From an archaeon (lineage in GTDB: Archaea > Nanobdellota > Nanobdellia > Pacearchaeales > GW2011-AR1), in contig DAOVXQ010000003.1 in assembly GCA_030636025.1 (NCBI GenBank), positions 32,481-96,480 of the forward strand: 64,000 nucleotides of DNA. Direction: 5' to 3'. Made by a program: the position numbers and the translations under genes. This document shows positions 3,348-41,135 of the stretch, piece after piece; position 1 is the first letter of the stretch, and every line of letters begins with the position of its first letter. The notes beneath the pieces are model-generated. The model was given only the letters and a program-made list of their open reading frames with translations. It was not told where the DNA came from and ran no database searches.

Positions 3348-4574
3348 ATGAAAAACAAAGCAATTTTGGTTTCTTTTATAGCACTTTTCGCTATAGTTTT
3401 AACTTTGAATGCAGTAATGGCTGTTGACTTCGCAACTATCAATGAAGTTGAATTTGACGATGTTTCAATAGTTGGTTTAACTTGGGCTGGATTTGCTTCT
3501 GAGGAAGTAGAAGTTGAAGTTGAATTTACTGCAGAAGATACTGTTTCTGATGTTAGGGTTAAAGTCTATATTGAAGGATATAGGGATGAAGTCTCAGAAA
3601 TTACTTCTAGATTCAACATTGTTGATGGAAGTAAATATGTTAAGAGATTTGTAATCAGATTACCTTCAACATTGGACTTAGATGATAACCCTGAAGACTT
3701 GTCTTTAATCATAAGGATGAGTGCTAAAGGTGAGGATTCATTCGAGGAATCTTATGCAATAAAAATGCAAAAAGATTCATACAGTTTGAATTTCTTATCT
3801 ATTGAAGCAGTTCAGAAAGCTGTTGCTGGCGATGTTATTGCGCTTGACGTTGTTGTTGAAAACAACGGAGATGAAAGCCTTGAGAATATTTATGTTAGAG
3901 CCTCAATTCCTGAATTAGGCGTTTCTAAAAGGGTATATGTTGGAGATTTACTTGCTGATGGTGAAGAAAGCGACGACGATAATGATAACGACGACGACGC
4001 AACAAGCAAAAGAATCTACTTGACATTACCTCGAGACACAATTCCAGGAATCTATGATATAGAAGTTGAAGCTTATAACTACGACACTGGTATCTCAGCT
4101 AAAAAAACTATAGCTGTTGGCGGTGTTGACTCAAGTATTTTACCTGCGATAACTTCAAAAAGCATTTCTGTTGGTGAGGAAACAATCTACAGCGTAGTGA
4201 TTGTTAATCCAAGTGATAGAATGGTTGTTTACATAATAACACCAGAAGAATCTAAAGGATTAATAGTAGATGTTGCTGAACCAATTGTTACAGTCCCTGC
4301 TGATTCAAGCAGAACTGTAAAAATAAGAGTTAAGGCCACTGAAAGTGCAGATGAAGGTACACATTTGATAGTAGTGAATGTTAATTCAGAAAGCGGACTT
4401 GTAAAACAAGTTAGCCTTACTGCAAATGTAGAAGATACAGGAAGAACAGACACTGTTTTCGTATTAACAGTTATTCTTGCAATAATCTTCGTCGTGCTTT
4501 TAATCGTACTTATCGTGCTATTAACAAAGAAACCCGCAGAAACTGAAGAATTCGGAGAAACAAGTTATTATTAA
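3348..4574 (+). CDS. Secreted acidic surface protein with C-terminal membrane anchor
   Basis: N-terminal signal peptide (MKNKAILVSFIALFAIVLTLNAVMA), beta-rich acidic body, and a C-terminal TM helix (VFVLTVILAIIFVVLLIVLIVLL) followed by KKP. Confidence 0.6.
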   Translation: MKNKAILVSFIALFAIVLTLNAVMAVDFATINEVEFDDVSIVGLTWAGFASEEVEVEVEFTAEDTVSDVRVKVYIEGYRDEVSEITSRFNIVDGSKYVKRFVIRLPSTLDLDDNPEDLSLIIRMSAKGEDSFEESYAIKMQKDSYSLNFLSIEAVQKAVAGDVIALDVVVENNGDESLENIYVRASIPELGVSKRVYVGDLLADGEESDDDNDNDDDATSKRIYLTLPRDTIPGIYDIEVEAYNYDTGISAKKTIAVGGVDSSILPAITSKSISVGEETIYSVVIVNPSDRMVVYIITPEESKGLIVDVAEPIVTVPADSSRTVKIRVKATESADEGTHLIVVNVNSESGLVKQVSLTANVEDTGRTDTVFVLTVILAIIFVVLLIVLIVLLTKKPAETEEFGETSYY

Positions 4575-4662: not shown

Positions 4663-5400
4663 ATGGCAAAAACACAAAAAATCAGAATTGATGTAACACC
4701 AAGAGAAATTATGTCTGCTTATGTGGCTGCACCATTTGATGAGGGTAAAAAAGCATTAGAAGAGCAAGGATACAATGTAATCTCTTTAGAAGAAAATGCT
4801 AAATTAAGAATCCAAGAAGGAAAGGATTCTAATATTCCATACAATTCAAATTGGACAAGGGAGGGGGTTGTTTATATTCCTAAAAAAGGAATTTTTTTGA
4901 CTAAAAATTCTCCCATAATGGAAAATCCAAAAAAAGCGACAGAATTTCATAAAAATGAAAAAGATTTTTATTTAAACAATGAACAAGTTGAGAAATCTTT
5001 AGCAGATTGTGTAGAAATAAAAAATAATCAAAATTTAGAAGGCAAATTTTGTAGCGACGAAGTACTTGTCTATGCTTTTGGAGGGGAAACAAATGCAAGA
5101 AATTATATAGCATTTTTAGAAAAAAATAAAAATATCAGGCAAATACCGATTTGGTTAGCAAATATGCAGGATAAACCTTTTGCTACACAAGTAATGTTAA
5201 AAGATTTGGCTAACTGGTCTGGACTTAATTGTTCTATCATTGGCCTTCAGGGTTTTCATTTTCTGCGTGGGACATATGATTATACAAAAAATACACTTGA
5301 AAAATTTGGATTTTATACCCCTAAACAGATTTCAAGTGCGTTGGAAAAAGCAAATCTTTCAGGAATTGAAAAGACTTTGATTGAAAATTTAAAACAATAA
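4663..5400 (+). CDS. Hypothetical protein
   Basis: 245-aa ORF. An AGGAG-like sequence lies upstream, and the gene is tightly coupled to the next ORF. Confidence 0.5.
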   Translation: MAKTQKIRIDVTPREIMSAYVAAPFDEGKKALEEQGYNVISLEENAKLRIQEGKDSNIPYNSNWTREGVVYIPKKGIFLTKNSPIMENPKKATEFHKNEKDFYLNNEQVEKSLADCVEIKNNQNLEGKFCSDEVLVYAFGGETNARNYIAFLEKNKNIRQIPIWLANMQDKPFATQVMLKDLANWSGLNCSIIGLQGFHFLRGTYDYTKNTLEKFGFYTPKQISSALEKANLSGIEKTLIENLKQ

Positions 5401-6197: not shown

Positions 6198-9062
6198 TTA
6201 AACCTCTAAACTCAACACCTTAGAAATTCCTTCTTGCATTGAAACACCATACAACACTGAAGAGGATTCTGAAATAATCGAATCATTGTGAGTAATAATA
6301 AGGTATTGCCCATTTTTCATATATCTTTTCAGCAAATACGCAAGTTTCTCTGAGTTCCTCCTGTCCAATGCAGCATCAATTTCATCAAATATATAAAAAC
6401 AATAAGGACTAAATTCCTGAATTGCAAAAATCAATGAAAGTGCAACAAGACATTGTTCTCCTCCTGAAAGCGAAGTAACATCAAAATATTTCCCACCCCC
6501 CACCTTAACAATAATATCAATCCCTGCATCAAAAACCTCTTTTTTATTCTGCGGTTCAAGAGTCACAATCCCTTTCTCACTAAGATTACTAAAATTCCTC
6601 GAAAACAAATCATTCACCTCATTCAAGGTTTGAAGAAACGCCTTTTTCTTTTTCCTGTCAATCTGCTCAATTATTTTCAAAATCTCCTCTTTCTCTTTAT
6701 CTAATTGCTCAACTTTCTCTTTTATTTTATCATATTCTGCTTTAATGTCGTCGTAAACTTCCAGTGCCCTCAAATTAACATTTCCAATTCTCGAGAAAAT
6801 ATCTTCTGAAGACTGCAACCTCCTGCAAAGTTTTTCCATGGAAAGATTAATAAATTCAACTCCCTCAAATTCTTTTATCTCATCTAAAAGAGATTCATAT
6901 TTTGCATTTATCTGTGCCCTCAAAATAGCAAAATCATTAACCTCATTCTCAAAAATCCTTTTCTCGTTCTGTTGTTTCATTAAATTCGACTCAAACATTC
7001 TAACCTTATCTTGAAAAACATTTTTCTCTGCAAACATTTTCTGATACTTCCTCTTCACAATCTCTGATTGTTCTTCTTTCTCCTCAACAATCTCCTGTTT
7101 CTCCTCGAGAACTTCCCCTAATTCAACCAACTCCTCACTTATCTCTTCCCTGTCATGCACAACCTGTTTAATCGCAACTCTTGTCCTCTCCAACTCCCTC
7201 TGTTTAATCGTAATCTCCCCGCCCAAATTCCTCTCCTCACTTCTCTGCAATTCATTAACCTCTAACTTAAGCATCTCATGCCCCTCTTCATTCGATTTTA
7301 TATGCGAAAATTTCGCCTGATTTATCGTCTGCTTTTTTTCAAATTTCTCCAACTCCAACTCAAAAAGCCTAACCTCCTCCCGATTCCTTTTCAATTGCTG
7401 TTTTTTATCCTCAATCGTCTGAAACTTAATCACATTTATCTCCCGCACATTTATCTCCTTATTCTCTCTAATTATCTTTTCCTTTAATTCATTTATTTTC
7501 TCAGAAGATTCCCTTATTTCTTTTTCAGCACCTGATAATATTTTTTTAAAATTAGAAATATCCTTATTTGTTTTATCAGAAACTTCTTTCATATGCTCCC
7601 CTGTCATTTTTGTCTTGCATAAAGGACAAATGTCAATCTTTGAAACCTGCACATTTATTTTTTCTGCTTTCTGAATTTCCTGCGTCTTAACAGCAAAAAT
7701 TTTCTCATTTTCTAAAAGCGACTTCTCCAAATCTATTATTGTTTGTCTGTTTTTATTTAAAGAATGTTTTAAATTAATAAGTGCCTCTTGGTTTTTATCC
7801 GAATTCTCCTTTATTTTTATTTCAGATTCAATTTGTTCAATCTGATTCAAAATAAAATTCGACTCATCTTTAACCCTCTGAGTCTGCCTTTTTTTATCTT
7901 CTATCTGGTTGTTCAGCGAAGAGATATTTGACTTAAGCAAATAATACTGCCTTTTCGCCTCCTCAAATCCCTCAAGCTTCGCCTTCTTTTCCTCTAATTC
8001 TTTCTTATGATTTTTCCCTTTCTCTTTAGACATTTCAGAAATTTCAATCTCAGCAGTTTTTATTGTCTCTGTAAGCATATTTTTTCTTCTGTCTAATTCA
8101 TTAAGTTGGTTTTCAAAATTTTCTTTTCTCGCACTAATACCTGCAATCTCCTGTTTTAATTCAGAAATATCTGAAAGCAATGTATCCTGTTCAAACCCCG
8201 ACGACTTCTGAATCACATTAGAAATATTATTTATTTTCTCATTCAGCAAATTTATCTCATTCTGCGTTTTAGAAATTATCTGAGATTTTTTCTCAATCTC
8301 CTGTTTTTTCAAATCAATTTTTTTATTTATCTCTTGCAATTCTTTTTGCTTTTCCTGTATTTTTTTATTAATAATCGACGCCTTGCATTTTTTTATTGTC
8401 TCTTCTAATTTTTTAAATCTAAGTGCTTGCTCCCGTTCATTTTCCAAATTCCGAAGATAATTCGTCCTTTCTCTCAAAACAGCATTTATTTGTTTTAATC
8501 TCTCCTCGGTTTTACCTAATTCTTTCAACGACTTCGTTTTTCTCATTTCATAAACAGAAATCCCTGCAACTTCCTCAATTACTTTTCTCCTGTCCTCCCC
8601 AGGCATTTTAACAAACTTTTCAATTTCTCCCTGAAGAATTATATTGAATCCGTGCGGGTCAATCGACGCCTGCCCTAAAATCTCCAAAACTTCCTGCCTC
8701 GTTTTCGTCTGGTTATTTATCAGATAAATACTCTGCCCATTTTTTTTCACAATTCTTTTAATCTTTATTTCTTTCTCATCCAACGCAAAAGTTTTATCCT
8801 CGTTATCAAAAACTATTTCAACATTTGCTTCATTAGATTTTTTGAATCTTTTATTTCCTGCAAAAATTAAATGCGACGCCTTTGCCGCCCTCATTGATTT
8901 AATGCTCAATCTCCCAAGAACAAAACAGAGTGCATCAGTAATATTGCTCTTCCCAGAACCATTCGGTCCAACAATTACATTAACATTTTTATCCAAATGA
9001 ATAGTCGTCTCTCTTGCAAAACTCTTAAATCCTTTTATTACCAACTTTTTTATATATGTCAT
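6198..9062 (-). CDS. smc: SMC-family chromosome-organisation ATPase, hinge-less, with central CxxC
   Basis: 954 aa. N-terminus KGFKSF...GPNGSGKSN (Walker A, SMC context). C-terminus LSGGEQ signature and FDEIDAALD. Long K/E-rich coiled coils. CPLC at 7617-7628 lies at the protein midpoint, and no Gly-rich globular hinge is visible. Confidence 0.85.
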   Translation of the reverse strand: MTYIKKLVIKGFKSFARETTIHLDKNVNVIVGPNGSGKSNITDALCFVLGRLSIKSMRAAKASHLIFAGNKRFKKSNEANVEIVFDNEDKTFALDEKEIKIKRIVKKNGQSIYLINNQTKTRQEVLEILGQASIDPHGFNIILQGEIEKFVKMPGEDRRKVIEEVAGISVYEMRKTKSLKELGKTEERLKQINAVLRERTNYLRNLENEREQALRFKKLEETIKKCKASIINKKIQEKQKELQEINKKIDLKKQEIEKKSQIISKTQNEINLLNEKINNISNVIQKSSGFEQDTLLSDISELKQEIAGISARKENFENQLNELDRRKNMLTETIKTAEIEISEMSKEKGKNHKKELEEKKAKLEGFEEAKRQYYLLKSNISSLNNQIEDKKRQTQRVKDESNFILNQIEQIESEIKIKENSDKNQEALINLKHSLNKNRQTIIDLEKSLLENEKIFAVKTQEIQKAEKINVQVSKIDICPLCKTKMTGEHMKEVSDKTNKDISNFKKILSGAEKEIRESSEKINELKEKIIRENKEINVREINVIKFQTIEDKKQQLKRNREEVRLFELELEKFEKKQTINQAKFSHIKSNEEGHEMLKLEVNELQRSEERNLGGEITIKQRELERTRVAIKQVVHDREEISEELVELGEVLEEKQEIVEEKEEQSEIVKRKYQKMFAEKNVFQDKVRMFESNLMKQQNEKRIFENEVNDFAILRAQINAKYESLLDEIKEFEGVEFINLSMEKLCRRLQSSEDIFSRIGNVNLRALEVYDDIKAEYDKIKEKVEQLDKEKEEILKIIEQIDRKKKKAFLQTLNEVNDLFSRNFSNLSEKGIVTLEPQNKKEVFDAGIDIIVKVGGGKYFDVTSLSGGEQCLVALSLIFAIQEFSPYCFYIFDEIDAALDRRNSEKLAYLLKRYMKNGQYLIITHNDSIISESSSVLYGVSMQEGISKVLSLEV

Positions 9063-9101: not shown

Positions 9102-9743
9102 CTAATACGCCCCCAAATCTTTTTGATTATTTTCTTTATGATACCTTTTATACGTGGACCAAGTCGTCCTCATTATTTCTTTATATTTCTTCCCATACTT
9201 TTTAACAAATTCCTGAGTCGTTTGATTTGAAGGATAACCTGGCCCACAATTCCCATATTTCTCGCGAATCTTTTTCATTTCATCTTCTCGTTCTACCTTC
9301 GCAATAATCGACGCAGCCGAACAAATCGGATAATTCGCATCTGCCTTGTGCTCAACAATCAACTTTATATTTTTATTATCCAAAAGATTTTTCAAATACT
9401 CCTCATACTTATAAGTGTTAATACTCGGGCAGTCAATTATCGCAGTGTCTGGATTTAGCTTATTAATAATCTGGGCTTGCTTATGTGCCTCCAACCAATT
9501 AAGATTCAAATCATCAGAATTCAGGGCATCGTCAATTTCCTTTGGCTCTACTTTAATTATTTTATACTCAAAATTTTCCTTTAAATGTTTTGATAATTTA
9601 ATCCTTTTACTATGATATAAAAATTTAGAATCCTTGACCTCCCCCAACATCTCCTCTTTTCCCTCTTCAATCATCGCTCCTGCAATAATCATTGGACCAA
9701 TAACCGGCCCCCTTCCTGCTTCATCAATTCCTAAAACTTTCAT
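9102..9743 (-). CDS. rnhB: Ribonuclease HII
   Basis: MKVLGIDEAGRGPVIGPMIIAG... (DEAGRG catalytic motif). The track ORF extends 53 codons further upstream across a tRNA on the other strand, so the start was moved to ATG 9743. Confidence 0.9.
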   Translation of the reverse strand: MKVLGIDEAGRGPVIGPMIIAGAMIEEGKEEMLGEVKDSKFLYHSKRIKLSKHLKENFEYKIIKVEPKEIDDALNSDDLNLNWLEAHKQAQIINKLNPDTAIIDCPSINTYKYEEYLKNLLDNKNIKLIVEHKADANYPICSAASIIAKVEREDEMKKIREKYGNCGPGYPSNQTTQEFVKKYGKKYKEIMRTTWSTYKRYHKENNQKDLGAY

Positions 9744-9795
9744 AAAAATAAATACATAGTTAGCTTTATAAATATAATAGGGTGTTATTTTATAT

Positions 9796-9871
9796 AGCGG
9801 GGTGGAGCAGTCTGGAGTGCTCACCGGGCCCATAACCCGGAGGTCGCGTGGTTCAAATCCCGCCCCCGCTA
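9796..9871 (+). tRNA. tRNA-Met (CAT), initiator-like
   Basis: Cloverleaf by eye: acceptor AGCGGGG/CCCCGCT, D stem GAGC/GCTC, anticodon stem CCGGG/CCCGG, loop CCCATAA. A1:U72 and GGG:CCC next to the loop are archaeal initiator hallmarks. The T arm GCG(T)GG-TTCAAAT-CCCGC has one extra nucleotide. Confidence 0.8.
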
Positions 9872-9934
9872 TAATTTTTAGGGCAGGATTTTCTAAACAC
9901 ATAATTATTTAAGGAATAAAATATTAAGTAAAAT

Positions 9935-10171
9935 ATGGAAAAACAAATAATGGATTTCAATGTATTTATAGAACAAGATGAAGATGGGATTTATGTAGCA
10001 AAAGTTCCAGAAATTGAAGGATGCTATACTCAAGGGAAAAATTTAGAAGAAGTAATTGAAAGAATTAAAGAAGCAATTGAGGTATGTTTAGAAGCAGATA
10101 AAGAAGAGATAAATCCAATGAGATTTGTAGGAATACAAAAAGTTCGTGTTGAAAGACCTCAGTTAGTTTAA
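9935..10171 (+). CDS. hicB: HicB-family antitoxin
   Basis: FNVFIEQDEDGIYVAKVPEIEGCYTQGKNLEEVIERIKEAIEVCLE is a typical HicB/UPF0150 N-terminal fold sequence. Confidence 0.8.
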   Translation: MEKQIMDFNVFIEQDEDGIYVAKVPEIEGCYTQGKNLEEVIERIKEAIEVCLEADKEEINPMRFVGIQKVRVERPQLV

Positions 10172-10172
10172 A

Positions 10173-10505
10173 ATGACAAAACTGATTACTATTTCTGGAA
10201 AGAAATTTTGCAAGATACTTGAAAAATTAGAGTTTGAAAAAATTCATGGAAAAGGAAGCCATATAAGATTCAAGCATCCTGATGGAAGAAGAACAGTTGT
10301 CCCTGTTCATGGAAATGAAGATTTAGGAAAAGGATTATTAAGAACAATTTTAAACCAAATTGATTTAACTAAAGAAGAGTATGAGAATCTGAGGAAAGAG
10401 GCTTCGTTGAATTTTTTGATTGGGCAGGTGATGCGGTTGTCGGAGAGACGTGCTGGTCCTGATGAAGTTCGAGTGTGTTTGAAGAGGTTGATAGGTGAGG
10501 GTTGA
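10173..10505 (+). CDS. hicA: HicA-family toxin with a ~40-aa GatB/YqeY-like C-terminal extension
   Basis: ISGKKFCKILEKLEFEKIHGKGSHIRFKHPDGRRTVVPVHGNEDLGKGLLRTIL is HicA. The tail SLNFLIGQVMRLSERRAGPDEVRVCLKRL resembles the C-terminal helix of GatB/YqeY domains and is visibly more GC-rich. Confidence 0.75.
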   Translation: MTKLITISGKKFCKILEKLEFEKIHGKGSHIRFKHPDGRRTVVPVHGNEDLGKGLLRTILNQIDLTKEEYENLRKEASLNFLIGQVMRLSERRAGPDEVRVCLKRLIGEG

Positions 10506-10518
10506 GAGATATAATTTA

Positions 10519-11280
10519 TTAATTCAATTTCTTTCTAATTATGTTAAGAACTGCCTCAATATCCTCAATGTCTGAGGGGTTGTTCAATGGGAATTCGAAC
10601 TTGGCATTTTCTCCGAAAATATTAACTATATACTTATTTTCTTTAAGCGATATCTTTTCTTTCTCTCTTATTTCTTCTGTGGAATTTTCTTCAGGACTCC
10701 CCCTTTCTTTTTCTTCTTGGGACTCTATTAATTTGAAATAATTTCCTTCTTTAGTTATTAGGTTGCAAAATGAAAGAAGTAAAATTGTAAATCTTACGCC
10801 TCTTTGATAATATCCTGGAGTCTTTCCGGGGGATTTGCTTTTGTAATAATTTTCAAGATCTAGGAGAGTAGGGGCGGGATTGTTTTTTATTAACTCTTCT
10901 TTTATCCCCTGATAGAGGTCGTGGTTTTTTATAACCTCTCTAAATCTCTGTTTTGCACTCTCTTCTCTTCCTGCCTTAAAATCGTAAAATAAATCAAACA
11001 TTTCCGTATTATCTACTTGATGCCATTTTTGAGTCTTTTTTTGTTCCCCATTAGAGTCCTCAAGCCCCCTAGTTTCTAAAATAAATCCCAAATATTTAAG
11101 ATAAGATAATATTCTCGACAAATTCCCTTCGCCAATAGGGGAGCCTGTTTTGATAAGATTCTCTTCGGTGAATGTTTTGCCAGTTGTAGAAATAACTTTA
11201 AGTATCTCGAATAGGTTTTTCACATTTATTACATCTCCGCTAGGGAGTTTTATATTGTATTTTTTTATCTTTTCTGCCAT
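10519..11280 (-). CDS. Hypothetical protein
   Basis: 253-aa ORF with typical local codon composition and no recognised motif. Confidence 0.5.
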   Translation of the reverse strand: MAEKIKKYNIKLPSGDVINVKNLFEILKVISTTGKTFTEENLIKTGSPIGEGNLSRILSYLKYLGFILETRGLEDSNGEQKKTQKWHQVDNTEMFDLFYDFKAGREESAKQRFREVIKNHDLYQGIKEELIKNNPAPTLLDLENYYKSKSPGKTPGYYQRGVRFTILLLSFCNLITKEGNYFKLIESQEEKERGSPEENSTEEIREKEKISLKENKYIVNIFGENAKFEFPLNNPSDIEDIEAVLNIIRKKLN

Positions 11281-30060: not shown

Positions 30061-30924
30061 ATGGTGAAAAAAATAAACAATTCTAAAGGCAATAAACTTA
30101 GTGTAGCTCCTAAACAATTATCTCAAAAACAAATAAAAAATTTCCCTTCTTTAAAACTTAAAACAGAAAAAGATATCGCGATGGACTTTGCTGAAAAGGC
30201 CTACAAAAAATTCGACAAATTAATAAAATCAATAATTTTGTTTGGTTCAACAATTAAACAAACAAACACCTCTAACTCAGACATTGATATAATTTTAATT
30301 GTAGACGACGCTAGTATTAATTTTGATGATAAATTAGTTTCATGGTATAGGGAAGAATTAGGAAAATTAATCCAAAAAAATCCTTACAAAAAAGATTTGC
30401 ACATCAACACAATTAAATTAACAACATGGTGGCAGGATTTATCAAGGGGCGACCCAGTTGTAATTAATATGTTAAGATACGGAGAATCAGTAATAGATTT
30501 TGGCGGATTTTTCAATCCATTAAAAATTCTCCTTCAGCAAGGTAAAATCAAACCAACACCAGAATCAATTTACACTGTTTTAAATAGAATCCCTGGACAC
30601 ATTTTAAGAAGCAGATTATCTGAATTAAGTGCAATCGAAGGATGCTATTGGGCATTTGTCGAATCTGCACAGGCATTATTAATGTCTGTCAAAGTTCTCC
30701 CGCCAAGCCCAGAGCACATTTCAATTTTACTAAAAGAACATTTCGTAGATAAAAAATTAATTAAAATGAAATGTGTTACAGATTTCAGAGATTTATATGA
30801 ACTTCATAAAAAAATAACTCATGGAGAAATTAGAAATTTAGACGGAAAAATCATTGATGGCTGGCAGGAAAAATCCGAAGATTTTTTCAAAAGCACTTTG
30901 AAATTAATTGATGAAATTATCTGA
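30061..30924 (+). CDS. Nucleotidyltransferase-domain protein (Pol-beta superfamily), paralogue of the core of 42504..44306
   Basis: ILFGSTIKQTNTSNSDIDIILIVDD (GS...DxD). The shared block GKIKPTPESI...ALLM also appears in the 600-aa protein. Confidence 0.65.
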   Translation: MVKKINNSKGNKLSVAPKQLSQKQIKNFPSLKLKTEKDIAMDFAEKAYKKFDKLIKSIILFGSTIKQTNTSNSDIDIILIVDDASINFDDKLVSWYREELGKLIQKNPYKKDLHINTIKLTTWWQDLSRGDPVVINMLRYGESVIDFGGFFNPLKILLQQGKIKPTPESIYTVLNRIPGHILRSRLSELSAIEGCYWAFVESAQALLMSVKVLPPSPEHISILLKEHFVDKKLIKMKCVTDFRDLYELHKKITHGEIRNLDGKIIDGWQEKSEDFFKSTLKLIDEII

Positions 30925-33713: not shown

Positions 33714-34346
33714 ATGGTAGAAAATATTACCAACTTAGAAATAGAAATAATCCGTTTATATAAAAATAATTATCTTAAAGAGATTTACATAAGAGAGATG
33801 GCTAAATTACTTGAAAAAAGCCATGTTACTCTTCTTCCTCACTTAAAAAATCTTGAAAAAAGAAATATCCTAATTTCAAAAATTTCTGGTAAAAATAAAA
33901 ACTACAAACTAAATATGGGCAATAATCTATCTAAGGAATATATTTCTATGGCAGAAAAACAAGATACTATTTCCATAATAAAAAAAGAGTTTTTTATAAA
34001 AAAAATTTATGATGAAACTCTAAATTTAGATTTAAATGGGATTATGGCACTATTTGGGAGTTATGCATCTGGGACATATAATAAAAAGAGTGACATAGAT
34101 TTATTTTACATAGGTTCAATCACAGAAAATCAAAAAAAATCAATAAAAAACATGGGAAGACTTTACAAAAAACGCATTCATTTAAGTGTTATGAATTTAA
34201 ACCAATTCAAAAAATCTTTAAAAGAAAATATAATAATAACCAAAGAAATAATAAAAAACCACATAATCCTGCAAAATTCAGACACATTCATAAATTCATT
34301 ATGGAAATATTATAATGGAAAAAGAGAATTTAACATGGTGTTTTAA
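33714..34346 (+). CDS. Nucleotidyltransferase (MNT-type antitoxin) with N-terminal wHTH
   Basis: LFGSYASGTYNKKSDIDLFYIG (GSxxxG...DxD). Confidence 0.7.
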   Translation: MVENITNLEIEIIRLYKNNYLKEIYIREMAKLLEKSHVTLLPHLKNLEKRNILISKISGKNKNYKLNMGNNLSKEYISMAEKQDTISIIKKEFFIKKIYDETLNLDLNGIMALFGSYASGTYNKKSDIDLFYIGSITENQKKSIKNMGRLYKKRIHLSVMNLNQFKKSLKENIIITKEIIKNHIILQNSDTFINSLWKYYNGKREFNMVF

Positions 34347-36050: not shown

Positions 36051-36497
36051 TTAAGAAAGAAGATGAGGAGTTCCGTTGTTTGCATAAGAATAAATGAGCC
36101 ACGAATTTCCTAGAGATCCACTTATAAAAACTACGCTTCCACCGCTTAAAGCTATTTCAATTTGTTTTTGTCCATGATTCTTAATGTGGCAACTCATTCC
36201 GTAAAACGGAGAACCGACATCTATATGCCCTTGACCTTGTTCATCCAAATAAATACTTCCATTATTCAGTTGAGCCTGAACAGAACCTACCATAAAATTC
36301 TGAACTAAAGGAGTATTTTTTCCTGCTCCAAGATCTCCACGAGATTTATTAATGCTACCCTCTATTTGATTATGACAATCTCTACAAATATCAGGCCTTA
36401 AATTTGATTGGTCATCATTGCCCATATATTTTTGAGCAACCAAGTGGTGAGTTGTTAACTTCTTTTCTTTTCCACAAAAACTACAAATTACAACCAT
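36051..36497 (-). CDS. HNH-like zinc-finger nuclease domain protein with beta-rich C-terminal domain
   Basis: CSFCGKEKKLTTHHLVAQKYMGNDDQSNLRPDICRDCHNQIE (CxxC...HH...N...CxxCH). Confidence 0.6.
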   Translation of the reverse strand: MVVICSFCGKEKKLTTHHLVAQKYMGNDDQSNLRPDICRDCHNQIEGSINKSRGDLGAGKNTPLVQNFMVGSVQAQLNNGSIYLDEQGQGHIDVGSPFYGMSCHIKNHGQKQIEIALSGGSVVFISGSLGNSWLIYSYANNGTPHLLS

Positions 36498-36503
36498 TTT
36501 ATT

Positions 36504-37481
36504 TTAATCCTCGATCTTTATATCTGCATATGAATTTTTTATAAATTCCAAGTATTTTTTGTGAATCTTTAAATTTCTCTTTTGTATTTCAATAAGTTTT
36601 TGAAGCCTCTTTACAAGGGGGTTTTCCAAAGTGTAATATTCTAGGGGGTTCTTTTTTCCAGGGTAGCGTGAAAAATTAAAGTGAGGTTCTATAAAAAAAT
36701 TCAAAGTTGAACTTACTGCATGAGAGGTTCCACCATAAACCATAGACTCTGCATGTCTAAGTGCGATATGCCTAAGAAATTCTCCAGTTACATTAAGTGC
36801 TTCTTTCTCCTCTTGTTCGCTTATTCCAATTCCCTCCTCTCTTTTTATTTTAGAAAAGGCCTTAATATTGCTAATCCATTCATTTGCAAGTTCTTCTTCT
36901 GTAAGTTTGTCTAACTTTTTAGCTTCAAACGTTTCTGCATTAAGTAATACCTTATCCATCTCCGAGAGGTTCTGGTCTAAAATTTCAAGATTGTCTGAAT
37001 AAATTTTTCCCTTTTCACTAACGCTCTTAATAATTCCTTCTGCCTCAATAACTTTTTTTTGATAGTCTTCTAGGTTTAATTTTTTAATCATAGGTATTTC
37101 TTTTAACTTGGGATTATTCTTTATAGCCTCCTTTAAATTAATAGTTTTTTTTAGGTTGGCTTTAATATCTTCGAGGTGTTTTTTAGAAGGGAAATGCCCA
37201 ACCTTTTCTTTTAATTCCTGTGATTTAAGAATCTCATTTAGCAAAAAGAGTGCTTTTGTGCTTTTCTCCACACTTTGTTGAAATGAAGATACAGAATTTG
37301 GGTATTTCTTATTTTCAAATAAAATTTTAGAGGATTCAAGATCTTCTTCTGCAATTTTTATTAATTCAAAAGCATAATCCACTTCTTTCTGATATTCTAG
37401 CCTTCTCTGGATATCTTCCTTTCCAGGCCCTTCTGGCATTTTCTTTAAAGCTTTTTCAACAGATTCTGGATCTGATATCAT
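36504..37481 (-). CDS. HEPN-domain protein with a ~170-aa coiled-coil insertion
   Basis: The N-terminal helices AEEDLESSKILFENKKYPNSVSSFQQSVEKSTKALFL and the C-terminal NFSRYPGKKNPLEYY match the HEPN (xxRYP) pattern. RHIALRH is also present. Confidence 0.55.
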   Translation of the reverse strand: MISDPESVEKALKKMPEGPGKEDIQRRLEYQKEVDYAFELIKIAEEDLESSKILFENKKYPNSVSSFQQSVEKSTKALFLLNEILKSQELKEKVGHFPSKKHLEDIKANLKKTINLKEAIKNNPKLKEIPMIKKLNLEDYQKKVIEAEGIIKSVSEKGKIYSDNLEILDQNLSEMDKVLLNAETFEAKKLDKLTEEELANEWISNIKAFSKIKREEGIGISEQEEKEALNVTGEFLRHIALRHAESMVYGGTSHAVSSTLNFFIEPHFNFSRYPGKKNPLEYYTLENPLVKRLQKLIEIQKRNLKIHKKYLEFIKNSYADIKIED

Positions 37482-38261: not shown

Positions 38262-38329
38262 AACCAAATTTTTTAAACCTGTTTTTCATAAATAAAATTA
38301 GATGAATGTTTATTTAAATGTTTAGAAAA
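38262..38329. repeat. 68-bp direct repeat, right copy (overlaps the ppsA stop codon)
   Basis: Identical to 35675-35742. It contains a truncated copy of the start of gene 34815..35702 and ends at the last codons of ppsA. Confidence 0.9.
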
Positions 38330-41135
38330 CCTCGCTAAATTCATCCTCATTATTATCAAAACTATATTCATATTTATTTTCTTCTGGAACAGGGGGATTA
38401 TACACTCCGATATTATTATCTTCTGCCCCACTAACGCCCCCATCCTCTGATTTTTCAACAGGTTCTTCAACCCCCTCATTCTTTTCTTCAATCGGTTCTT
38501 CAATATCTTCTTGAACATCTTCTGCCCGAGCACCCTTAATCTCTTTTACTCTTTCTTCAACCCCCTCAAAATTATCAACAGGTTTAATTGGCTCTTGTTT
38601 CAATTCTTTTTCCAGAGCTTTTTTCTTTTTATAACATTCCTTACAACAAAGATTGTCCTGATTCTCCCTGGGCTTAAATGGAACAGTCGCCTCCTTCCCG
38701 CATTCAGAACAAATTATATTAAACCCCCATTTTTTCCTTTTAGGTTTCGCCTCAACAAACTTTTCCTTAAATTCAACAGGTTTTTCTTTCTCAAACTTTC
38801 TTTCATAAATCGGTTTAGGTTCCTCAATCTTTTCTTCAATCACTGGAGCAACTTCTTCCACAAAAGAATCTTCCAACTCTTTAATCAAAACAGAAACATC
38901 ATAACCAGCGTCAGCATTAACAGAAATAGAATCAATCCCATTCTTAAAAAGAAATTTCACTATTTCTTTTTTACTTCCTGCCTGCCCACAAATACTTGTT
39001 TCAATATTATATTTTTTGCAAACTTCAATAACTTTTTTTATCTGAGACAAAATTGCGGGATGAGACTCGTCATATAAATACTGAACATCATCATTGCCCC
39101 TATCAACACCCAATGTAAACTGAGTCAAATCATTTGTCCCAAAACTAACAAAATCAACATTCTCTTTGCAAATGTCTTCGATAATTTGAACAGAAGCAGG
39201 AGTTTCAATCATAACCCCGAACTGAATATTCGGCAATTTTATCTTATCAAAATACTCTTTTGCTTGTTTAATTTCTTCAACAGAAATAATCTGTGGGAAC
39301 ATAATCCCAATTTTTTTATCAGGATATTTCTCAGCAACTTGTTTAACCGCCAAAAGTTCTGCTTCAAATATTTTAAGATGCTTTAAACTAAATCTAATCC
39401 CGTGAAATCCCAGCATTGGATTAATTTCTTCTTCAGGTGCCCCCTCTAATGTTCCATATTCATCACTCCTAATATCAGAACTTCTTATCCAAACTAATTT
39501 AAAATACTCTGCAATTTTTTCAATCCCTTCTCTTAAAAGTTGAGTGTACTCTTCAAGTTTATTTTCCTTTTCATACTGCAAAGGATGCTTGCCAGAACTC
39601 GCAATAACTCCCTCCAACCTCATCAAACCAACAGAATCAATTTTAGATTCAGCAGCCCGTTCAGCAAAATCCGGCAAATCAACAATCACCTTTAATTTAA
39701 CTTTTGAAGTTTCTATGACCGGTTTAATTTCTGCCAAGGTGGTTTCAGCAACAGCACCCTCATAAATTTTCCCAGTGCTTCCATTAACAGTAATTTTCAT
39801 TCCATCTTTTAATCTCTCTGTCGCCCCATCTGCCCCGACAACAGCTGGAATCCCCATCTCTCGACTCACAATAGAAGCATGCGAAGTTATCCCTCCCTCG
39901 TCAGTAACAATGGCATTTGATTTCTGCATACTAACAACCATATCCGGATTAGTCATTTTTGTAACAAGAATATCTCCTTTTTTAATTTTAGAAAGGTCAT
40001 CCATTGTATTAATTATTTTAACAACCCCGACACCAATCCCAGGACTAGCCGGCTCTCCTTTCAAAATAACATTACCAGAAATCTTTCCTGTCTTCTCTTT
40101 GGCCTTCAAGGTTGTAATTGGTCTTGACTGCAAAATATAAACTTTATCTTCTTCAATACCAAACTCAATATCTTGTGGCTTTCCATAATGCTCTTCTAAT
40201 TTAATTGCATAATCTCCAACCTCAAGAATTTGTGCATTTGACAAAACCTGACTCCTACTTTTTTCTAAACTTAATTTAACAATCTCATTCTCTCCAGAAC
40301 CAGTTCTAACTATTGCAATTTTTTTATCTGCTGTTTTAACTTTCTGAACATGCAAATCTCTTGAAACAATATAATGGTCTGGTTTAATTTTACCAGAAAC
40401 AATGCCCTCACCCAAACCATAAACCGCCTCAATTACAATATTCTCATCTAAATTAACAGGGTCTCTGGAAAAAACAACACCCGACTTTTCTGAATCAACC
40501 ATTTTCTGAACAACAACTGCAAGCAAGGATTCCTCTTCCTTAAAGCCCTTTTTATTCCGATAATAAATTGCCCTCGCTGTATACAAACTCGCAAAACATT
40601 TTTTAATATATTCAATTAATTGATGGTCTCCTTTAACATTCAAAAAACTTTGTTGCTGTCCTGCAAAACTCGCATCTACTAAATCCTCTGTCGTTGCAGA
40701 ACTCCGAACAGAAACAAAAATCGGCTCCTGCGAATTTTTCAAAATAGTCAAAGCATCTGAAGAAACTCCTTTCTCATCAATTTTTTCAGTCCCCAAAATA
40801 TGATATGCCTCAAGAATTTCTTTTTTTAAATCATCAGGGATATTCTGCTCAATAATCATTTCCCGAATTTCTTTTGCTTTTTCAGTCAGCTCAGAAGTAT
40901 TTTCCATATCAATTCCAATAATAATATTCGCAATTCTTTCTTTCAATCCACTATTGCCAATAAAATACTCAAAAGACTGGGCAGTCGCAACAAATCCTTG
41001 TGGCACAGGAAATTTATGATTATACATCTCGCCCAGCGACGCCCCCTTCCCCCCGACAATATCAACATTCTTATTACTCAGCTCAGCAAACCACTTAATA
41101 TACTTGTCATCAAAATCAACCCTTTTTGTTTCCAT
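38322..41135 (-). CDS. ppsA: Phosphoenolpyruvate synthase (pyruvate, water dikinase) with a ~165-aa C-terminal zinc-ribbon/acidic extension
   Basis: 937 aa. ATP-grasp N-terminus (GGKGASLGEM), phosphohistidine region GGITSHASIVSREMGIPAV, and PEP-utilising TIM domain (GTNDLTQ). Extension: CSECGKEATVPFKPRENQDNLCCKECY plus an E/D-rich tail. Confidence 0.9.
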   Translation of the reverse strand: METKRVDFDDKYIKWFAELSNKNVDIVGGKGASLGEMYNHKFPVPQGFVATAQSFEYFIGNSGLKERIANIIIGIDMENTSELTEKAKEIREMIIEQNIPDDLKKEILEAYHILGTEKIDEKGVSSDALTILKNSQEPIFVSVRSSATTEDLVDASFAGQQQSFLNVKGDHQLIEYIKKCFASLYTARAIYYRNKKGFKEEESLLAVVVQKMVDSEKSGVVFSRDPVNLDENIVIEAVYGLGEGIVSGKIKPDHYIVSRDLHVQKVKTADKKIAIVRTGSGENEIVKLSLEKSRSQVLSNAQILEVGDYAIKLEEHYGKPQDIEFGIEEDKVYILQSRPITTLKAKEKTGKISGNVILKGEPASPGIGVGVVKIINTMDDLSKIKKGDILVTKMTNPDMVVSMQKSNAIVTDEGGITSHASIVSREMGIPAVVGADGATERLKDGMKITVNGSTGKIYEGAVAETTLAEIKPVIETSKVKLKVIVDLPDFAERAAESKIDSVGLMRLEGVIASSGKHPLQYEKENKLEEYTQLLREGIEKIAEYFKLVWIRSSDIRSDEYGTLEGAPEEEINPMLGFHGIRFSLKHLKIFEAELLAVKQVAEKYPDKKIGIMFPQIISVEEIKQAKEYFDKIKLPNIQFGVMIETPASVQIIEDICKENVDFVSFGTNDLTQFTLGVDRGNDDVQYLYDESHPAILSQIKKVIEVCKKYNIETSICGQAGSKKEIVKFLFKNGIDSISVNADAGYDVSVLIKELEDSFVEEVAPVIEEKIEEPKPIYERKFEKEKPVEFKEKFVEAKPKRKKWGFNIICSECGKEATVPFKPRENQDNLCCKECYKKKKALEKELKQEPIKPVDNFEGVEERVKEIKGARAEDVQEDIEEPIEEKNEGVEEPVEKSEDGGVSGAEDNNIGVYNPPVPEENKYEYSFDNNEDEFSEVF

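What the first reader, a model, noticed from the sequence alone, without database searches (positions are those of the whole stretch)
6198..9062. SMC-type ATPase with a Rad50-like CxxC at the coiled-coil apex instead of a hinge domain
- The head domains are SMC-like, not Rad50/SbcC-like: KGFKSF...GPNGSGKSNITDAL, the C-terminal NVNLRALE...LSGGEQ...FDEIDAALD, and VLYGVSMQEGISKV.
- The protein is only 954 aa.
- Its centre is continuous K/E-rich coiled coil with a single CPLC (nt 7617-7628, residue ~478 of 954).
- No Gly-rich globular hinge is recognisable.
- A zinc-hook-style dimerisation module on an SMC head would be an unusual chimeric architecture for the main chromosome-organising ATPase of a reduced archaeon.
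- No Mre11, ScpA or ScpB gene is adjacent.
Basis: partly seen in the sequence, partly recalled or inferred. Interest (0 to 1): 0.65.

Follow-up and report, generated by a model that had tools for sequence, protein, structure and literature searches.

The report
SMC with zinc hook replacing hinge
In a group of tiny DPANN archaea, the chromosome-organising SMC ATPase has lost its usual hinge domain and carries a Rad50-type Cys-x-x-Cys zinc hook at the tip of its arms; until now this chimera was known only as a laboratory construct.

Summary
The 954-aa ORF at 6198-9062 lies on the minus strand. Its ATPase heads are SMC-type: 500 bits against the SMC model, versus 91 for Rad50 and 110 for ASRP. 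No SMC hinge is detectable. The arms are about 300 residues of helix each and meet at a 14-residue loop containing CPLC (aa 479-482).

The CxxC sits at the same position in all 120 close homologues and in every full-length relative down to 39% identity. A profile of the central 101 residues finds the Pyrococcus Rad50 zinc hook as its top two PDB hits. The AlphaFold model of this region (pLDDT 93) superposes on that hook with TM 0.84.

The protein aligns in the same order with hinge-bearing Woesearchaeota SMCs on both sides of the apex. About 200 residues of hinge correspond to 10-25 residues of hook. The gene occupies the same locus as the hinge-type gene, just downstream of RNase HII.

I conclude it is the orthologous SMC of a Pacearchaeota/Woesearchaeota clade with its hinge replaced by a zinc hook. 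It is a natural counterpart of the engineered, functional B. subtilis Smc(Zh). I found no published description.

Zinc binding, dimerisation, the kleisin partner and sole-copy status are untested. It is a new variant of a known kind.

The parts
6198..9062 (-). smc gene encoding the 954-aa hook-type SMC (stop codon included).
   Evidence: ORF list and translation. NCBIfam SMC_prok_B scores 500 bits. It has 63-73% identical homologues of 954 aa in Pacearchaeota and Nanoarchaeota MAGs.
8562..9062 (-). N-terminal ATPase head lobe (aa 1-167). It includes Walker A GPNGSGKSN (aa 32-40, window 8943-8969) and the Q-loop IILQGEI (aa 141-147, window 8622-8642).
   Evidence: Coordinates and motifs. PDB hit to Pyrococcus Smc head 5xei, query aa 1-247, 340 bits. 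Foldseek alignments to Smc head chains are 45-50% identical over about 166 columns.
7644..8561 (-). Ascending coiled-coil arm (aa 168-473, about 303 residues from head boundary to Cys479). It has a conserved helix break at aa 345-352 (window 8007-8030).
   Evidence: AlphaFold2 helices 167-344, 353-414 and 421-473. Arm length is almost invariant across the clade. It aligns in the same order with aa 1-483 of hinge-type SMCs.
7602..7643 (-). Apex loop SKIDICPLCKTKMT (aa 474-487), the predicted zinc hook.
   Evidence: It is the non-helical loop between the two long helices in both models. The fragment model has pLDDT 93.4. Its best Foldseek match is the Rad50 Zn hook 1l8d, TM 0.84, rmsd 2.7.
7617..7628 (-). 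CPLC (Cys479, Pro480, Leu481, Cys482), the predicted zinc ligands. One protomer supplies two of the four.
   Evidence: Positions. Invariant in 39 of 39 aligned sequences and present in 120 of 120 homologues. Aligns with CPVC of P. furiosus Rad50.
7593..7595 (-). Invariant His490, eight residues after the second Cys. The spacing matches the His in the Pyrococcus Rad50 hook CPVCGRELTDEH.
   Evidence: Invariant column. Alignment to 1l8d.
6582..7601 (-). Descending coiled-coil arm (aa 488-827, about 292 residues from Cys482 to the head boundary). It has a conserved break SEERNLG at aa 608-614 (window 7221-7241) and joint-region breaks at aa 731-741 and 760-765.
   Evidence: AlphaFold2 helices 488-587, 592-609, 615-730, 742-759 and 766-827. 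It aligns in the same order with aa ~683-1143 of hinge-type SMCs.
6201..6581 (-). C-terminal ATPase head lobe (aa 828-954). It contains the signature LSGGEQ (window 6453-6470), Walker B/D-loop FYIFDEIDAALD (window 6363-6398) and H-loop IITHN (window 6285-6299).
   Evidence: Coordinates. PDB hits to Smc C-terminal head chains 1e69, 3kta_B and 1xew_Y.
9102..9902 (-). RNase HII gene immediately upstream on the same strand. It is the conserved syntenic partner of smc in this lineage and is context, not part of the protein.
   Evidence: Pfam RNase_HII, 141 bits. It lies upstream on the same strand in 37 of 55 loci. It also flanks the hinge-type gene (L058) and the apex-less type (L061, L062).
3348..4574 (+). 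408-aa FixG_C/NPCBM_assoc-like protein, convergent downstream. It is the second syntenic marker of the locus and is context only.
   Evidence: Pfam. Present in 28 of 55 loci. Homologous to the 433-aa gene downstream of the hinge-type SMC in L058, phmmer E 5e-35.

Best explanation
This is the orthologous SMC (condensin-type chromosome-organising ATPase) of a clade of DPANN archaea labelled Pacearchaeota, Woesearchaeota or Nanoarchaeota. In this clade the ~200-residue globular hinge has been replaced in situ by a short Rad50-type zinc hook.

**Shown:**
- SMC-type heads with all ATPase motifs intact.
- Full-length coiled-coil arms of about 300 residues.
- No hinge.
- An invariant CPxC...H motif at the exact apex.
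- Sequence and predicted-fold similarity of that apex to the Rad50 hook.
- Alignment in the same order, and shared synteny, with hinge-bearing SMCs.

**Inferred mechanism:**
- Two protomers each contribute Cys479 and Cys482 to one tetrahedrally coordinated Zn2+. This forms a constitutive homodimer joined at the arm tips, as in Rad50.
- The arms align into a rod, and the heads engage and disengage with ATP.
- A kleisin not yet identified presumably bridges the heads.
- The complex then acts on the chromosome as Smc-ScpAB does.

**Basis for feasibility:** a B. subtilis Smc whose hinge was swapped for the Pyrococcus Rad50 hook supported normal growth (PMC5344682).

**Origin (inferred):** recombination with a Rad50- or ASRP-type hook is more likely than convergence, roughly 60:40.
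For: **Heads**
- NCBIfam: SMC_prok_B 500 bits and SMC_prok_A 487 bits, against ASRP 110 and Rad50 91.
- PDB: Pyrococcus Smc head 340 bits against Rad50 about 50 bits.
- Foldseek on the full model returns condensin, Smc5/6 and P. yayanosii Smc head plus joint.

**No hinge**
- Shown by Pfam, the hinge HMM and the AlphaFold2 helices.

**Hook**
- The CxxC is at the homologous position in 120 of 120 homologues.
- D477, C479, P480, L481, C482 and H490 are invariant.
- CPxC is retained in all full-length relatives down to 39% identity.
- A profile of aa 430-530 finds 1l8d and 6zff (P. furiosus Rad50 hook) as the top two of 177,635 PDB sequences, E 2.8e-4.
- 23 of 23 members hit Pfam Rad50_zn_hook.
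- hhalign against the Pyrococcus hook: probability 94.5%, CPLCKTKMTGEH aligned to CPVCGRELTDEH.
- The fragment model has pLDDT 93.4.
- The model's best Foldseek hits among 350,542 chains are 1l8d_B and 1l8d_A (TM 0.84, rmsd 2.7), plus 6zff_B (TM 0.84).

**Replacement, not a new family**
- Query aa 1-476 and 485-954 align in the same order with aa 1-483 and 683-1143 of hinge-type P0164.
- Arm lengths are 303/292 residues, against 314-329/303-309 in the hinge-bearing relatives.
- In the head tree the hook clade has 91-93% bootstrap support.
- Its most similar heads (49-54% identity) are hinge-bearing SMCs of Woesearchaeota-labelled MAGs.

**Same locus**
- RNase HII lies upstream and an NPCBM-like gene is convergent downstream. 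This holds for the hinge-type (L058), the hook-type (window and 37 of 55 loci) and the apex-less type (L061, L062).

**Breadth**
- 53 GTDB species genomes carry the motif.
Against: - **No direct evidence for the mechanism.** Zinc binding and dimerisation are untested, and no multimer prediction was available.
- **Hook similarity is suggestive, not decisive.**
  - The Pfam hook hit is just below the gathering score: 23.1 against 24.3 bits on the fragment, and 16 bits in the full-length protein.
  - Foldseek E-values for the hook are weak (1e-2), as expected for a helical hairpin.
- **No kleisin found.**
  - No ScpA or ScpB turned up in the window or in 60 related loci, 681 kb in total.
  - The ring-closing partner is therefore unknown.
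  - This is equally true of the hinge-type loci of the sister lineage.
- **Sole-copy status unchecked.** I could not scan whole genomes, so a second SMC, or the presence or absence of Rad50-Mre11 in the same genomes, is untested.
- **The tree has limits.**
  - It is neighbour-joining on heads only, with no Rad50 or ASRP outgroup.
  - The exact sister group is unresolved (10% bootstrap).
- **Modest full-length model.** Its confidence is only moderate (pLDDT 73, pTM 0.30).
Confidence: 0.8

Rival explanations
1. It is a Rad50/SbcC-family double-strand-break repair ATPase that has been mistaken for an SMC. The hook would then be unremarkable.
For: - It has a central CxxC with Rad50-hook similarity.
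- Its length (954 aa) is nearer to archaeal Rad50 models (872-895 positions) than to typical SMC (about 1150 aa).
- Rad50 models do give weak full-length hits of 31-91 bits.
Against: - SMC models score 487-500 bits, against at most 91 bits for any Rad50 model, whose cut-offs are 700-1087.
- PDB Smc heads score 340 bits against about 50 for Rad50.
- It aligns in the same order with hinge-type SMCs along both arms.
- It shares its locus with hinge-type SMC genes.
- No Mre11 or metallophosphatase gene is adjacent, in the window or in the 55 loci.
- The SMC-style Walker B/D-loop FDEIDAALD and the SMC joint region match 5xei.
Confidence: 0.02
2. It is a member of, or an additional paralogue akin to, the archaea-specific SMC-related proteins (ASRP: ClsN/coalescin, Sph1/2). 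These are already known to carry a zinc hook. It would then coexist with a canonical SMC elsewhere in the genome.
For: - ASRPs are archaeal, SMC-like and carry a zinc hook (PMC9389158).
- The NCBIfam ASRP model gives a 110-bit hit.
- Whole genomes could not be checked for a second SMC.
Against: - ASRP scores 110 bits against a cut-off of 300, and far below SMC at 500 bits.
- The ASRP model has 593 positions, whereas this protein has 954 aa with full-length SMC arms.
- It occupies the same RNase HII-linked locus as the hinge-type SMC of Woesearchaeota MAGs. That argues for orthology rather than paralogy.
- Its heads are 49-54% identical to hinge-type DPANN SMC heads.
Confidence: 0.05
3. It is the SMC orthologue, but the CxxC is not an intermolecular zinc hook. 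It might stabilise the hairpin turn, form a disulfide or redox switch, or bind another metal or partner. Dimerisation would then rest on arm-arm or head contacts only.
For: - There is no experimental or multimer-model evidence for zinc-mediated dimerisation.
- Related ~800-aa proteins inside the same clade have neither hinge nor any CxxC. Apex-independent dimerisation may therefore be possible in this lineage.
- The Pfam hook score is below the gathering threshold.
Against: - Only two Cys per chain sit at the apex, so a tetrahedral site needs a second chain. This is the defining logic of the Rad50 hook (established knowledge; PMC7752040).
- The motif matches Rad50 beyond the cysteines: Pro at +1, a hydrophobic residue at +2, Thr-x-Glu-His at +5 to +8 after the second Cys, and flanking helices.
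- The predicted fold superposes on the zinc-bound hook structures.
- The absolute conservation of both Cys across deep divergence indicates strong constraint.
Confidence: 0.1
4. It is an SMC-like component of an anti-phage or anti-plasmid defence system (Lamassu LmuB, Wadjet JetC or similar), not a housekeeping protein.
For: - PADLOC models hit the protein: mad3 166 bits, LmuB 85 bits, JetC 27 bits.
- A HicAB toxin-antitoxin pair lies 0.9 kb upstream.
Against: - The PADLOC hits are generic SMC-head similarities and lie far below the 500-bit SMC score.
- No defence partner genes are conserved next to it. The conserved neighbour is RNase HII.
- The gene is present at the same locus across 53 species-level genomes with strong purifying conservation. 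Defence islands are typically patchy.
Confidence: 0.02

Closest known systems
Canonical prokaryotic Smc (Smc-ScpAB condensin; TIGR02168/TIGR02169), e.g. Pyrococcus and B. subtilis Smc
   Same: - Head lobes, all ATPase motifs and the joint region match.
- Arm length is within about 5%.
- It aligns in the same order along both arms.
- It shares a genomic locus with the hinge-type orthologues of the sister lineage.
   Different: - It has no hinge domain (PF06470 absent). About 200 residues are replaced by a 10-25 residue CPxC loop.
- As a result it scores below both equivalog cut-offs: 500 against 567 bits, and 487 against 729 bits.
- No ScpA or ScpB has been found so far.
Rad50/SbcC zinc hook (PF04423; PDB 1l8d, 6zff)
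   Same: - The CPxC sits at the exact apex of an antiparallel coiled coil.
- The extended motif CP[LV]C-x3-[LIM]T-x-EH is shared.
- The predicted hairpin superposes at TM 0.84.
   Different: - The heads are not Rad50-type (at most 91 bits).
- There is no Mre11 partner nearby.
- The arms are homologous to SMC arms.
Engineered Smc(Zh): B. subtilis Smc with its hinge swapped for the P. furiosus Rad50 zinc hook (Burmann et al. 2017, PMC5344682); and the reciprocal Rad50-MukB-hinge chimera (Tatebe et al. 2020, PMC6969161)
   Same: The architecture is identical: SMC heads and arms joined by a Rad50-type hook. The engineered protein supported normal growth on rich medium, so this design can work.
   Different: - This protein is natural and ancient: the clade has diverged to 39% identity.
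- It is fixed in at least 53 species-level genomes.
- The replaced segment is much smaller than the transplanted Pyrococcus hook-plus-coiled-coil cassette.
ASRP family (ClsN/coalescin, Sph1/Sph2; NF045487; Yoshinaga et al. 2022, PMC9389158)
   Same: Both are archaeal SMC-superfamily proteins with a central zinc hook.
   Different: - ASRP is a separate clade from SMC, and its model has 593 positions.
- This protein scores 110 bits against the ASRP cut-off of 300, and 500 bits on SMC.
'Hinge-less' SMC variants of marine Actinobacteria (Sussfeld et al. 2025, PMC12153180)
   Same: Both have SMC-type heads, a coiled coil and no hinge.
   Different: - Those are bacterial and explicitly lack a CXXC motif.
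- Here a conserved hook takes the hinge's place.
- The apex-less ~800-aa relatives noticed here (P0137 etc.) resemble them more closely.

Membership tests
SMC proper (prokaryotic Smc, TIGR02168/TIGR02169) | SMC-type ABC ATPase head with Walker A, Q-loop, signature motif, Walker B/D-loop and H-loop. | tested here: met
   All motifs are present. Pfam SMC_N scores 173 bits. The Pyrococcus Smc head scores 340 bits.
SMC proper (prokaryotic Smc, TIGR02168/TIGR02169) | Globular hinge dimerisation domain (PF06470) at the centre. | tested here: not met
   There is no PF06470 hit at E<=10 and no hit with a sister-group hinge HMM. AlphaFold2 shows only a 14-residue loop.
SMC proper (prokaryotic Smc, TIGR02168/TIGR02169) | Score above the curated equivalog cut-off. 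| tested here: not met
   It scores 499.9 against 567.35 bits (SMC_prok_B) and 487.2 against 729.4 bits (SMC_prok_A). The match falls in two stretches that skip the hinge.
SMC proper (prokaryotic Smc, TIGR02168/TIGR02169) | Long antiparallel intramolecular coiled-coil arms of SMC length, homologous to SMC arms. | tested here: met
   Helices span aa 167-473 and 488-827. Arms are 303/292 residues, against 314-329/303-309 in hinge-type relatives. The alignment with hinge-type SMCs keeps the same order.
SMC proper (prokaryotic Smc, TIGR02168/TIGR02169) | Orthology: descent from, and same locus as, canonical SMC genes. | tested here: met
   The hook clade has 91-93% bootstrap support among hinge-bearing SMCs. 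It shares the RNase HII / NPCBM-like flanks with hinge-type L058.
SMC proper (prokaryotic Smc, TIGR02168/TIGR02169) | Works with a kleisin (ScpA) and a kite subunit (ScpB). | tested here: inconclusive
   No ScpA or ScpB was found in the 64-kb window or in 60 loci. Whole genomes could not be searched. The hinge-type loci of the sister lineage also lack an adjacent ScpA.
Rad50/SbcC | Central CxxC zinc hook at the coiled-coil apex. | tested here: met
   This rests on sequence and predicted fold only. Zinc binding is not testable with these tools.
Rad50/SbcC | Rad50-type head, scoring above the Rad50 model cut-offs. | tested here: not met
   The best Rad50 model scores 91 bits against a cut-off of 700. 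SbcC scores 21 bits against 478.
Rad50/SbcC | Partner nuclease Mre11/SbcD, usually in the same operon. | tested here: not met
   There is no metallophosphatase or Mre11 family in any window ORF of >=100 aa. No conserved neighbour of that kind appears in the 55 loci.
ASRP (ClsN/Sph, NF045487) | Score above the curated ASRP cut-off; short (~600 aa) architecture. | tested here: not met
   It scores 109.7 bits against a cut-off of 300. The protein is 954 aa, against a 593-position model.
Defence SMC-likes (Lamassu LmuB, Wadjet JetC, PADLOC) | Best match to a defence-family model, with cognate partner genes adjacent. | tested here: not met
   Only generic head hits were found: mad3 166 bits, LmuB 85 bits, JetC 27 bits. 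The neighbours are RNase HII and housekeeping genes.

The most novel reading that the evidence does not exclude
In these reduced genomes the hook-SMC may be the only long-armed SMC-superfamily ATPase, with no separate Rad50-Mre11 and possibly no ScpAB kleisin. It would have taken over Rad50's hook and combine chromosome organisation with Rad50-like tethering of DNA between complexes, or run an SMC cycle that needs neither hinge nor canonical kleisin. The ~800-aa descendants that have also lost the hook would then mark a further step towards a minimal SMC.
Probability: 0.1. Interest if true: 0.85.

Novelty: new variant of a known kind. Interest (0 to 1): 0.62.

Why it matters
What the SMC hinge actually does is a long-running question. 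Proposed roles include DNA binding, a DNA entry or bypass gate, and contact with the heads during loop extrusion.

The only evidence that the hinge fold is dispensable comes from one engineered B. subtilis chimera (PMC5344682) and a reciprocal yeast Rad50 chimera (PMC6969161). Here evolution has done the same experiment and kept the result:
- The result persists across a whole archaeal clade that has diverged to 39% identity.
- Arm length is held almost constant.
- The gene stays at the same locus.

This gives:
- **A hinge-free SMC for biochemistry.** It occurs naturally, has been optimised by selection, and can be expressed recombinantly for structural and loop-extrusion work.
- **Evidence that apex modules move between families.** Dimerisation modules appear to be exchanged between Rad50-like and SMC proteins.
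- **A graded series at one locus.** Hinge, hook and no apex all occur there, which can be used to ask which apex functions are essential.

It also shows that hinge-based search strategies and the curated SMC models, which this protein fails on score, systematically miss such proteins.

Tried and rejected
- **Plus-strand translation.** Translating the stated coordinates on the plus strand gives no ORF; the gene is on the minus strand.
- **Looking for ScpA by adjacency.**
  - The neighbours of hook-type P0002 have none.
  - The neighbours of hinge-type P0152, P0161 and P0154 have none either.
  - ScpA was adjacent only in a euryarchaeal locus and a Naiadarchaeales locus.
- **Searching for ScpA with sequence models.**
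  - phmmer and jackhmmer with those ScpA/ScpB seeds found nothing in the window or the 60 loci.
  - A 115-sequence ScpA HMM also found nothing there.
- **Candidate kleisins next to smc.**
  - I considered the unannotated 245-aa gene downstream of smc (4663-5400) and the 253-aa gene at 10519-11280.
  - They have no Pfam support (no hit at E<=0.01), only a weak PADLOC match for the 253-aa gene (17.7 bits), and no ScpA-HMM hit.
- **Resolving the sister group.** The specific Woesearchaeota sister grouping has only 10% NJ bootstrap. I therefore claim only clade monophyly and nearest similarity.
- **Defence-system reading.** Rejected after the PADLOC scan.
- **Chance CxxC or assembly artefact.** Rejected because the motif is conserved in over 100 independent clusters and 53 genomes.
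- **Prior descriptions.**
  - Eight literature searches found no report of a natural SMC with a zinc hook.
  - The nearest paper describes hinge-less actinobacterial SMCs without a CXXC.
  - Subscription-only papers were not searchable.

Full report
**1. Observation.**
The window holds a 954-aa ATG-to-stop ORF at 6198-9062, on the minus strand.
- Walker A: GPNGSGKSN (aa 32-40)
- Q-loop: IILQGEI
- Signature motif: LSGGEQ
- Walker B/D-loop: FYIFDEIDAALD
- H-loop: IITHN

The protein has seven cysteines and a single CxxC. That CxxC is CPLC at aa 479-482, which is window 7617-7628. Pfam finds SMC_N at 173 bits. It finds no SMC_hinge even at E<=10. It gives a weak Rad50_zn_hook hit at aa 478-507 (E 0.011).

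**2. The heads are SMC-type.**

| Evidence | SMC | Rad50 | Other |
|---|---|---|---|
| NCBIfam models | SMC_prok_B 500 bits, SMC_prok_A 487 bits | 91 bits | ASRP 110, SbcC 21 |
| PDB sequence search | Pyrococcus Smc head 5xei, 340 bits | about 50 bits | none |

- The SMC models match in two stretches that skip the hinge, which is why the scores fall below the curated cut-offs.
- Foldseek on the full-length AlphaFold2 model (pLDDT 73) returns condensin, Smc5/6, cohesin and the P. yayanosii Smc head with joint.
- PADLOC gives only generic head similarities.

**3. The centre is a coiled-coil hairpin, not a hinge.**
- The full-length model has helices at aa 167-344, 353-414 and 421-473. A loop at aa 474-487 follows, then helices at aa 488-587, 592-609 and 615-730.
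- A separate model of aa 430-530 reaches pLDDT 93.4. It is helix, 14-residue loop, helix, with both cysteines in the loop.
- A hinge HMM built from sister proteins recognises 98 of 150 relatives but not this protein.

**4. The apex is a Rad50-type hook by sequence and predicted fold.**
- The CxxC is at the homologous position in 120 of 120 homologues of 63-100% identity.
- D477, C479, P480, L481, C482 and H490 are invariant in a 39-sequence alignment.
- A profile of the central 101 residues, searched against 177,635 PDB sequences, returns the P. furiosus Rad50 zinc hook entries 1l8d and 6zff as its top two hits (E 2.8e-4 and 5.7e-4). The next hit is at E 0.11.
- All 23 members of the central-region alignment hit Pfam Rad50_zn_hook. 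The best E is 2e-5, and the window fragment scores 23.1 bits, just under the 24.3-bit gathering score.
- hhalign against the Pyrococcus hook sequence gives 94.5% probability over 45 columns. CPLCKTKMTGEH pairs with CPVCGRELTDEH, with the same Cys-to-His spacing.
- Foldseek on the fragment model ranks 1l8d_B and 1l8d_A first among 350,542 chains (TM 0.84, rmsd 2.7 A) and 6zff_B at TM 0.84. The E-values are weak (1e-2), as is usual for helical hairpins.

**5. Distribution.**
- The closest homologues come from MAGs labelled Candidatus Pacearchaeota or Nanoarchaeota. They are annotated 'chromosome segregation SMC family protein', and none has a precomputed hinge domain.
- A scan of one genome per GTDB species for [LI]D[IT]CPLC[KQ]T found 53 genomes.
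  - All carry Pacearchaeota, Woesearchaeota or Nanoarchaeota labels, or the unspecific 'archaeon', except one 'Dojkabacteria' bin that is probably misassigned.
  - In these genomes the protein is 945-960 aa where complete (longer where an intein is inserted), 46-73% identical to the window protein, and has the hook at about aa 479.
- An exhaustive HMMER search of 1.84 billion cluster representatives shows a sharp divide.
  - The nearest full-length representatives (39-69% identity, 946-1023 aa) all carry a central CPxC. Variants seen are CPLC, CPFC, CPTC, CPVC, CPMC, CPIC and CPKC.
  - More distant representatives are hinge-bearing SMCs, mostly of 1100-1200 aa.

**6. It is a replacement within one orthologous gene.**

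*Collinearity.* The window protein aligns in the same order with hinge-type relatives on both sides of the apex. For P0164, query aa 1-476 match aa 1-483 and query aa 485-954 match aa 683-1143. About 200 residues of hinge therefore correspond to 10-25 residues of hook.

*Arm length* (residues from each head boundary to the apex module):

| Form | N-arm | C-arm |
|---|---|---|
| Hook type (nearly invariant across the clade) | 303 | 292 |
| Hinge type (nearest relatives) | 314-329 | 303-309 |

*Head tree.* This is a neighbour-joining tree of 113 representatives.
- The hook-type proteins, together with four ~800-aa relatives, form one clade with 91-93% bootstrap support.
- The most similar heads outside the clade (49-54% identity) belong to hinge-bearing SMCs. 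The named ones come from Woesearchaeota-labelled MAGs.
- The exact sister group is unresolved (10% bootstrap). The tree contains only SMC sequences, with no Rad50 or ASRP outgroup.

*Synteny.*
- RNase HII lies immediately upstream on the same strand in 37 of 55 loci.
- An NPCBM/FixG_C-like surface protein lies convergent downstream in 28 of 55 loci.
- The same two genes flank the hinge-type SMC in a Woesearchaeota MAG (L058). The matches are phmmer E 1e-60 and 5e-35 against the window genes.

**7. Partners.**
- Pfam scans of every window ORF of >=100 aa found no ScpA, ScpB, Mre11 or Rad50.
- smc-scpA(-scpB) operons do exist in a euryarchaeal locus and a Naiadarchaeales locus.
- A 115-sequence archaeal ScpA HMM built finds nothing at E<=10 in the window plus 60 loci, 681 kb in total. 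That set includes the hinge-type Woesearchaeota loci.
- The kleisin is therefore unlinked or absent in this whole lineage, whatever the apex type. Whole genomes could not be searched.

**8. Mechanism.**

Shown: the architecture, the conservation and the homology described above.

Inferred:
- Each chain offers only two cysteines at the apex. A tetrahedral zinc site therefore needs two chains, as in Rad50. This gives a homodimer joined at the arm tips.
- The SMC-type arms and heads then run the usual ATP cycle.

This design is known to be workable. Burmann et al. replaced the B. subtilis Smc hinge with the P. furiosus Rad50 hook and obtained normal growth on rich medium. They concluded that the fold of the dimerisation domain is irrelevant for chromosome segregation (PMC5344682). 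Tatebe et al. showed the reciprocal swap in fission yeast Rad50 (PMC6969161).

**9. Comparison with the literature.**
- Yoshinaga et al. 2022 list Rad50 and ASRP as the SMC-related families with a zinc hook, and do not include SMC proper (PMC9389158).
- Sussfeld et al. 2025 describe hinge-less SMCs in marine Actinobacteria that explicitly lack a CXXC (PMC12153180).
- Burmann et al. collected SMC sequences using hinge alignments as queries, which would exclude this family.
- Eight full-text searches found no description of a natural SMC with a zinc hook. Subscription-only literature was not covered.

**10. Verdict.**
- The finding and its interpretation are supported.
- I file it as a new variant of a known kind: an SMC orthologue with a Rad50-type hook in place of the hinge.
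- It fails two formal SMC membership criteria, the hinge and the curated score. It meets the head, arm, descent and locus criteria.
- Open points are zinc binding and dimerisation, the kleisin, whether it is the only SMC-superfamily long-arm ATPase in its genome, and whether the hook came from Rad50 or arose by convergence.

Noticed in passing
Related proteins P0137 (804 aa), P0139 (801), P0142 (779), P0144 (781); loci L061:6279-8693 and L062:7001-9346: These are 'apex-less' mini-SMCs from Pacearchaeota-labelled MAGs.
- Their SMC heads are 42-46% identical to the window protein, and they fall inside the hook clade in the head tree.
- They have no hinge, no CxxC and almost no cysteine.
- They lack about 130 residues of each distal arm plus the hook. 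Homology resumes at the conserved arm break (window protein aa 608-626).
- They sit at the same RNase HII-linked locus, so they look like secondary losses of the hook.
- How they dimerise is unknown.
   Followed up: partly
Homologues P0044, P0052, P0063, P0073, P0088, P0091, P0098, P0106, P0112, P0120; L021:3145-7575; L035:3142-7572: Many hook-SMC homologues carry an intein inserted in the Walker A loop, after the Lys of GPNGSGK.
- Most carry a LAGLIDADG homing-endonuclease intein and are about 1475-1490 aa.
- P0088 carries a mini-intein and is 1116 aa.
- The window copy has no intein.
- Several hinge-type relatives of about 1660-1800 aa probably carry one too.
   Followed up: partly
window 9795-9872 (+) and 9102-9902 (-): A tRNA-Met gene lies inside the 5' end of the 266-aa RNase HII ORF on the opposite strand. 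The RNase HII domain starts at aa 57 and homologues are about 215 aa, so the true start codon is probably an internal Met.
   Followed up: partly
Representatives P0148 (943 aa), P0153 (963 aa) and the ~800-870-aa group incl. P0213, P0214, P0224, P0237, P0240, P0245 (L059:3340-5841): These are hinge-bearing SMCs with short arms. P0148 and P0153 have about 200-230 residues per strand, roughly 85-100 fewer than the main class. The named example, P0245, is from Naiadarchaeales and has an adjacent scpA. Together with the apex-less class, this recalls the multimodal arm-length distribution reported for SMCs (PMC5344682).
   Followed up: no
window 9935-10505 (+): A HicB-like antitoxin (78 aa) and a HicA toxin (110 aa, with a GatB_Yqey-like tail) lie as a pair just upstream of the RNase HII-smc unit.
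   Followed up: no
L004 (JAFCCB010000021.1): This contig is filed under 'Candidatus Dojkabacteria bacterium'. It carries a hook-SMC 69% identical to the window protein and the archaeal NPCBM-like neighbour. It is most likely an archaeal contig placed in the wrong bin.
   Followed up: partly
window 38322-41135 (-): A 937-aa PEP-utilising enzyme (PPDK_N, mobile domain and PEP-binding domain) carries a C-terminal treble-clef zinc finger, PF23477.
   Followed up: no
window 47477-48277 (-): A DDE_Tnp_1 transposase ORF suggests an insertion sequence in this otherwise compact genome segment.
   Followed up: no
window 30061-30924 (+), 33714-34346 (+), 36504-37481 (-), 36051-36497 (-): Several ORFs carry nucleotidyltransferase (NTP_transf_2/Polbeta), HEPN or HNH domains. 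They may be toxin-antitoxin or defence-type modules.
   Followed up: no
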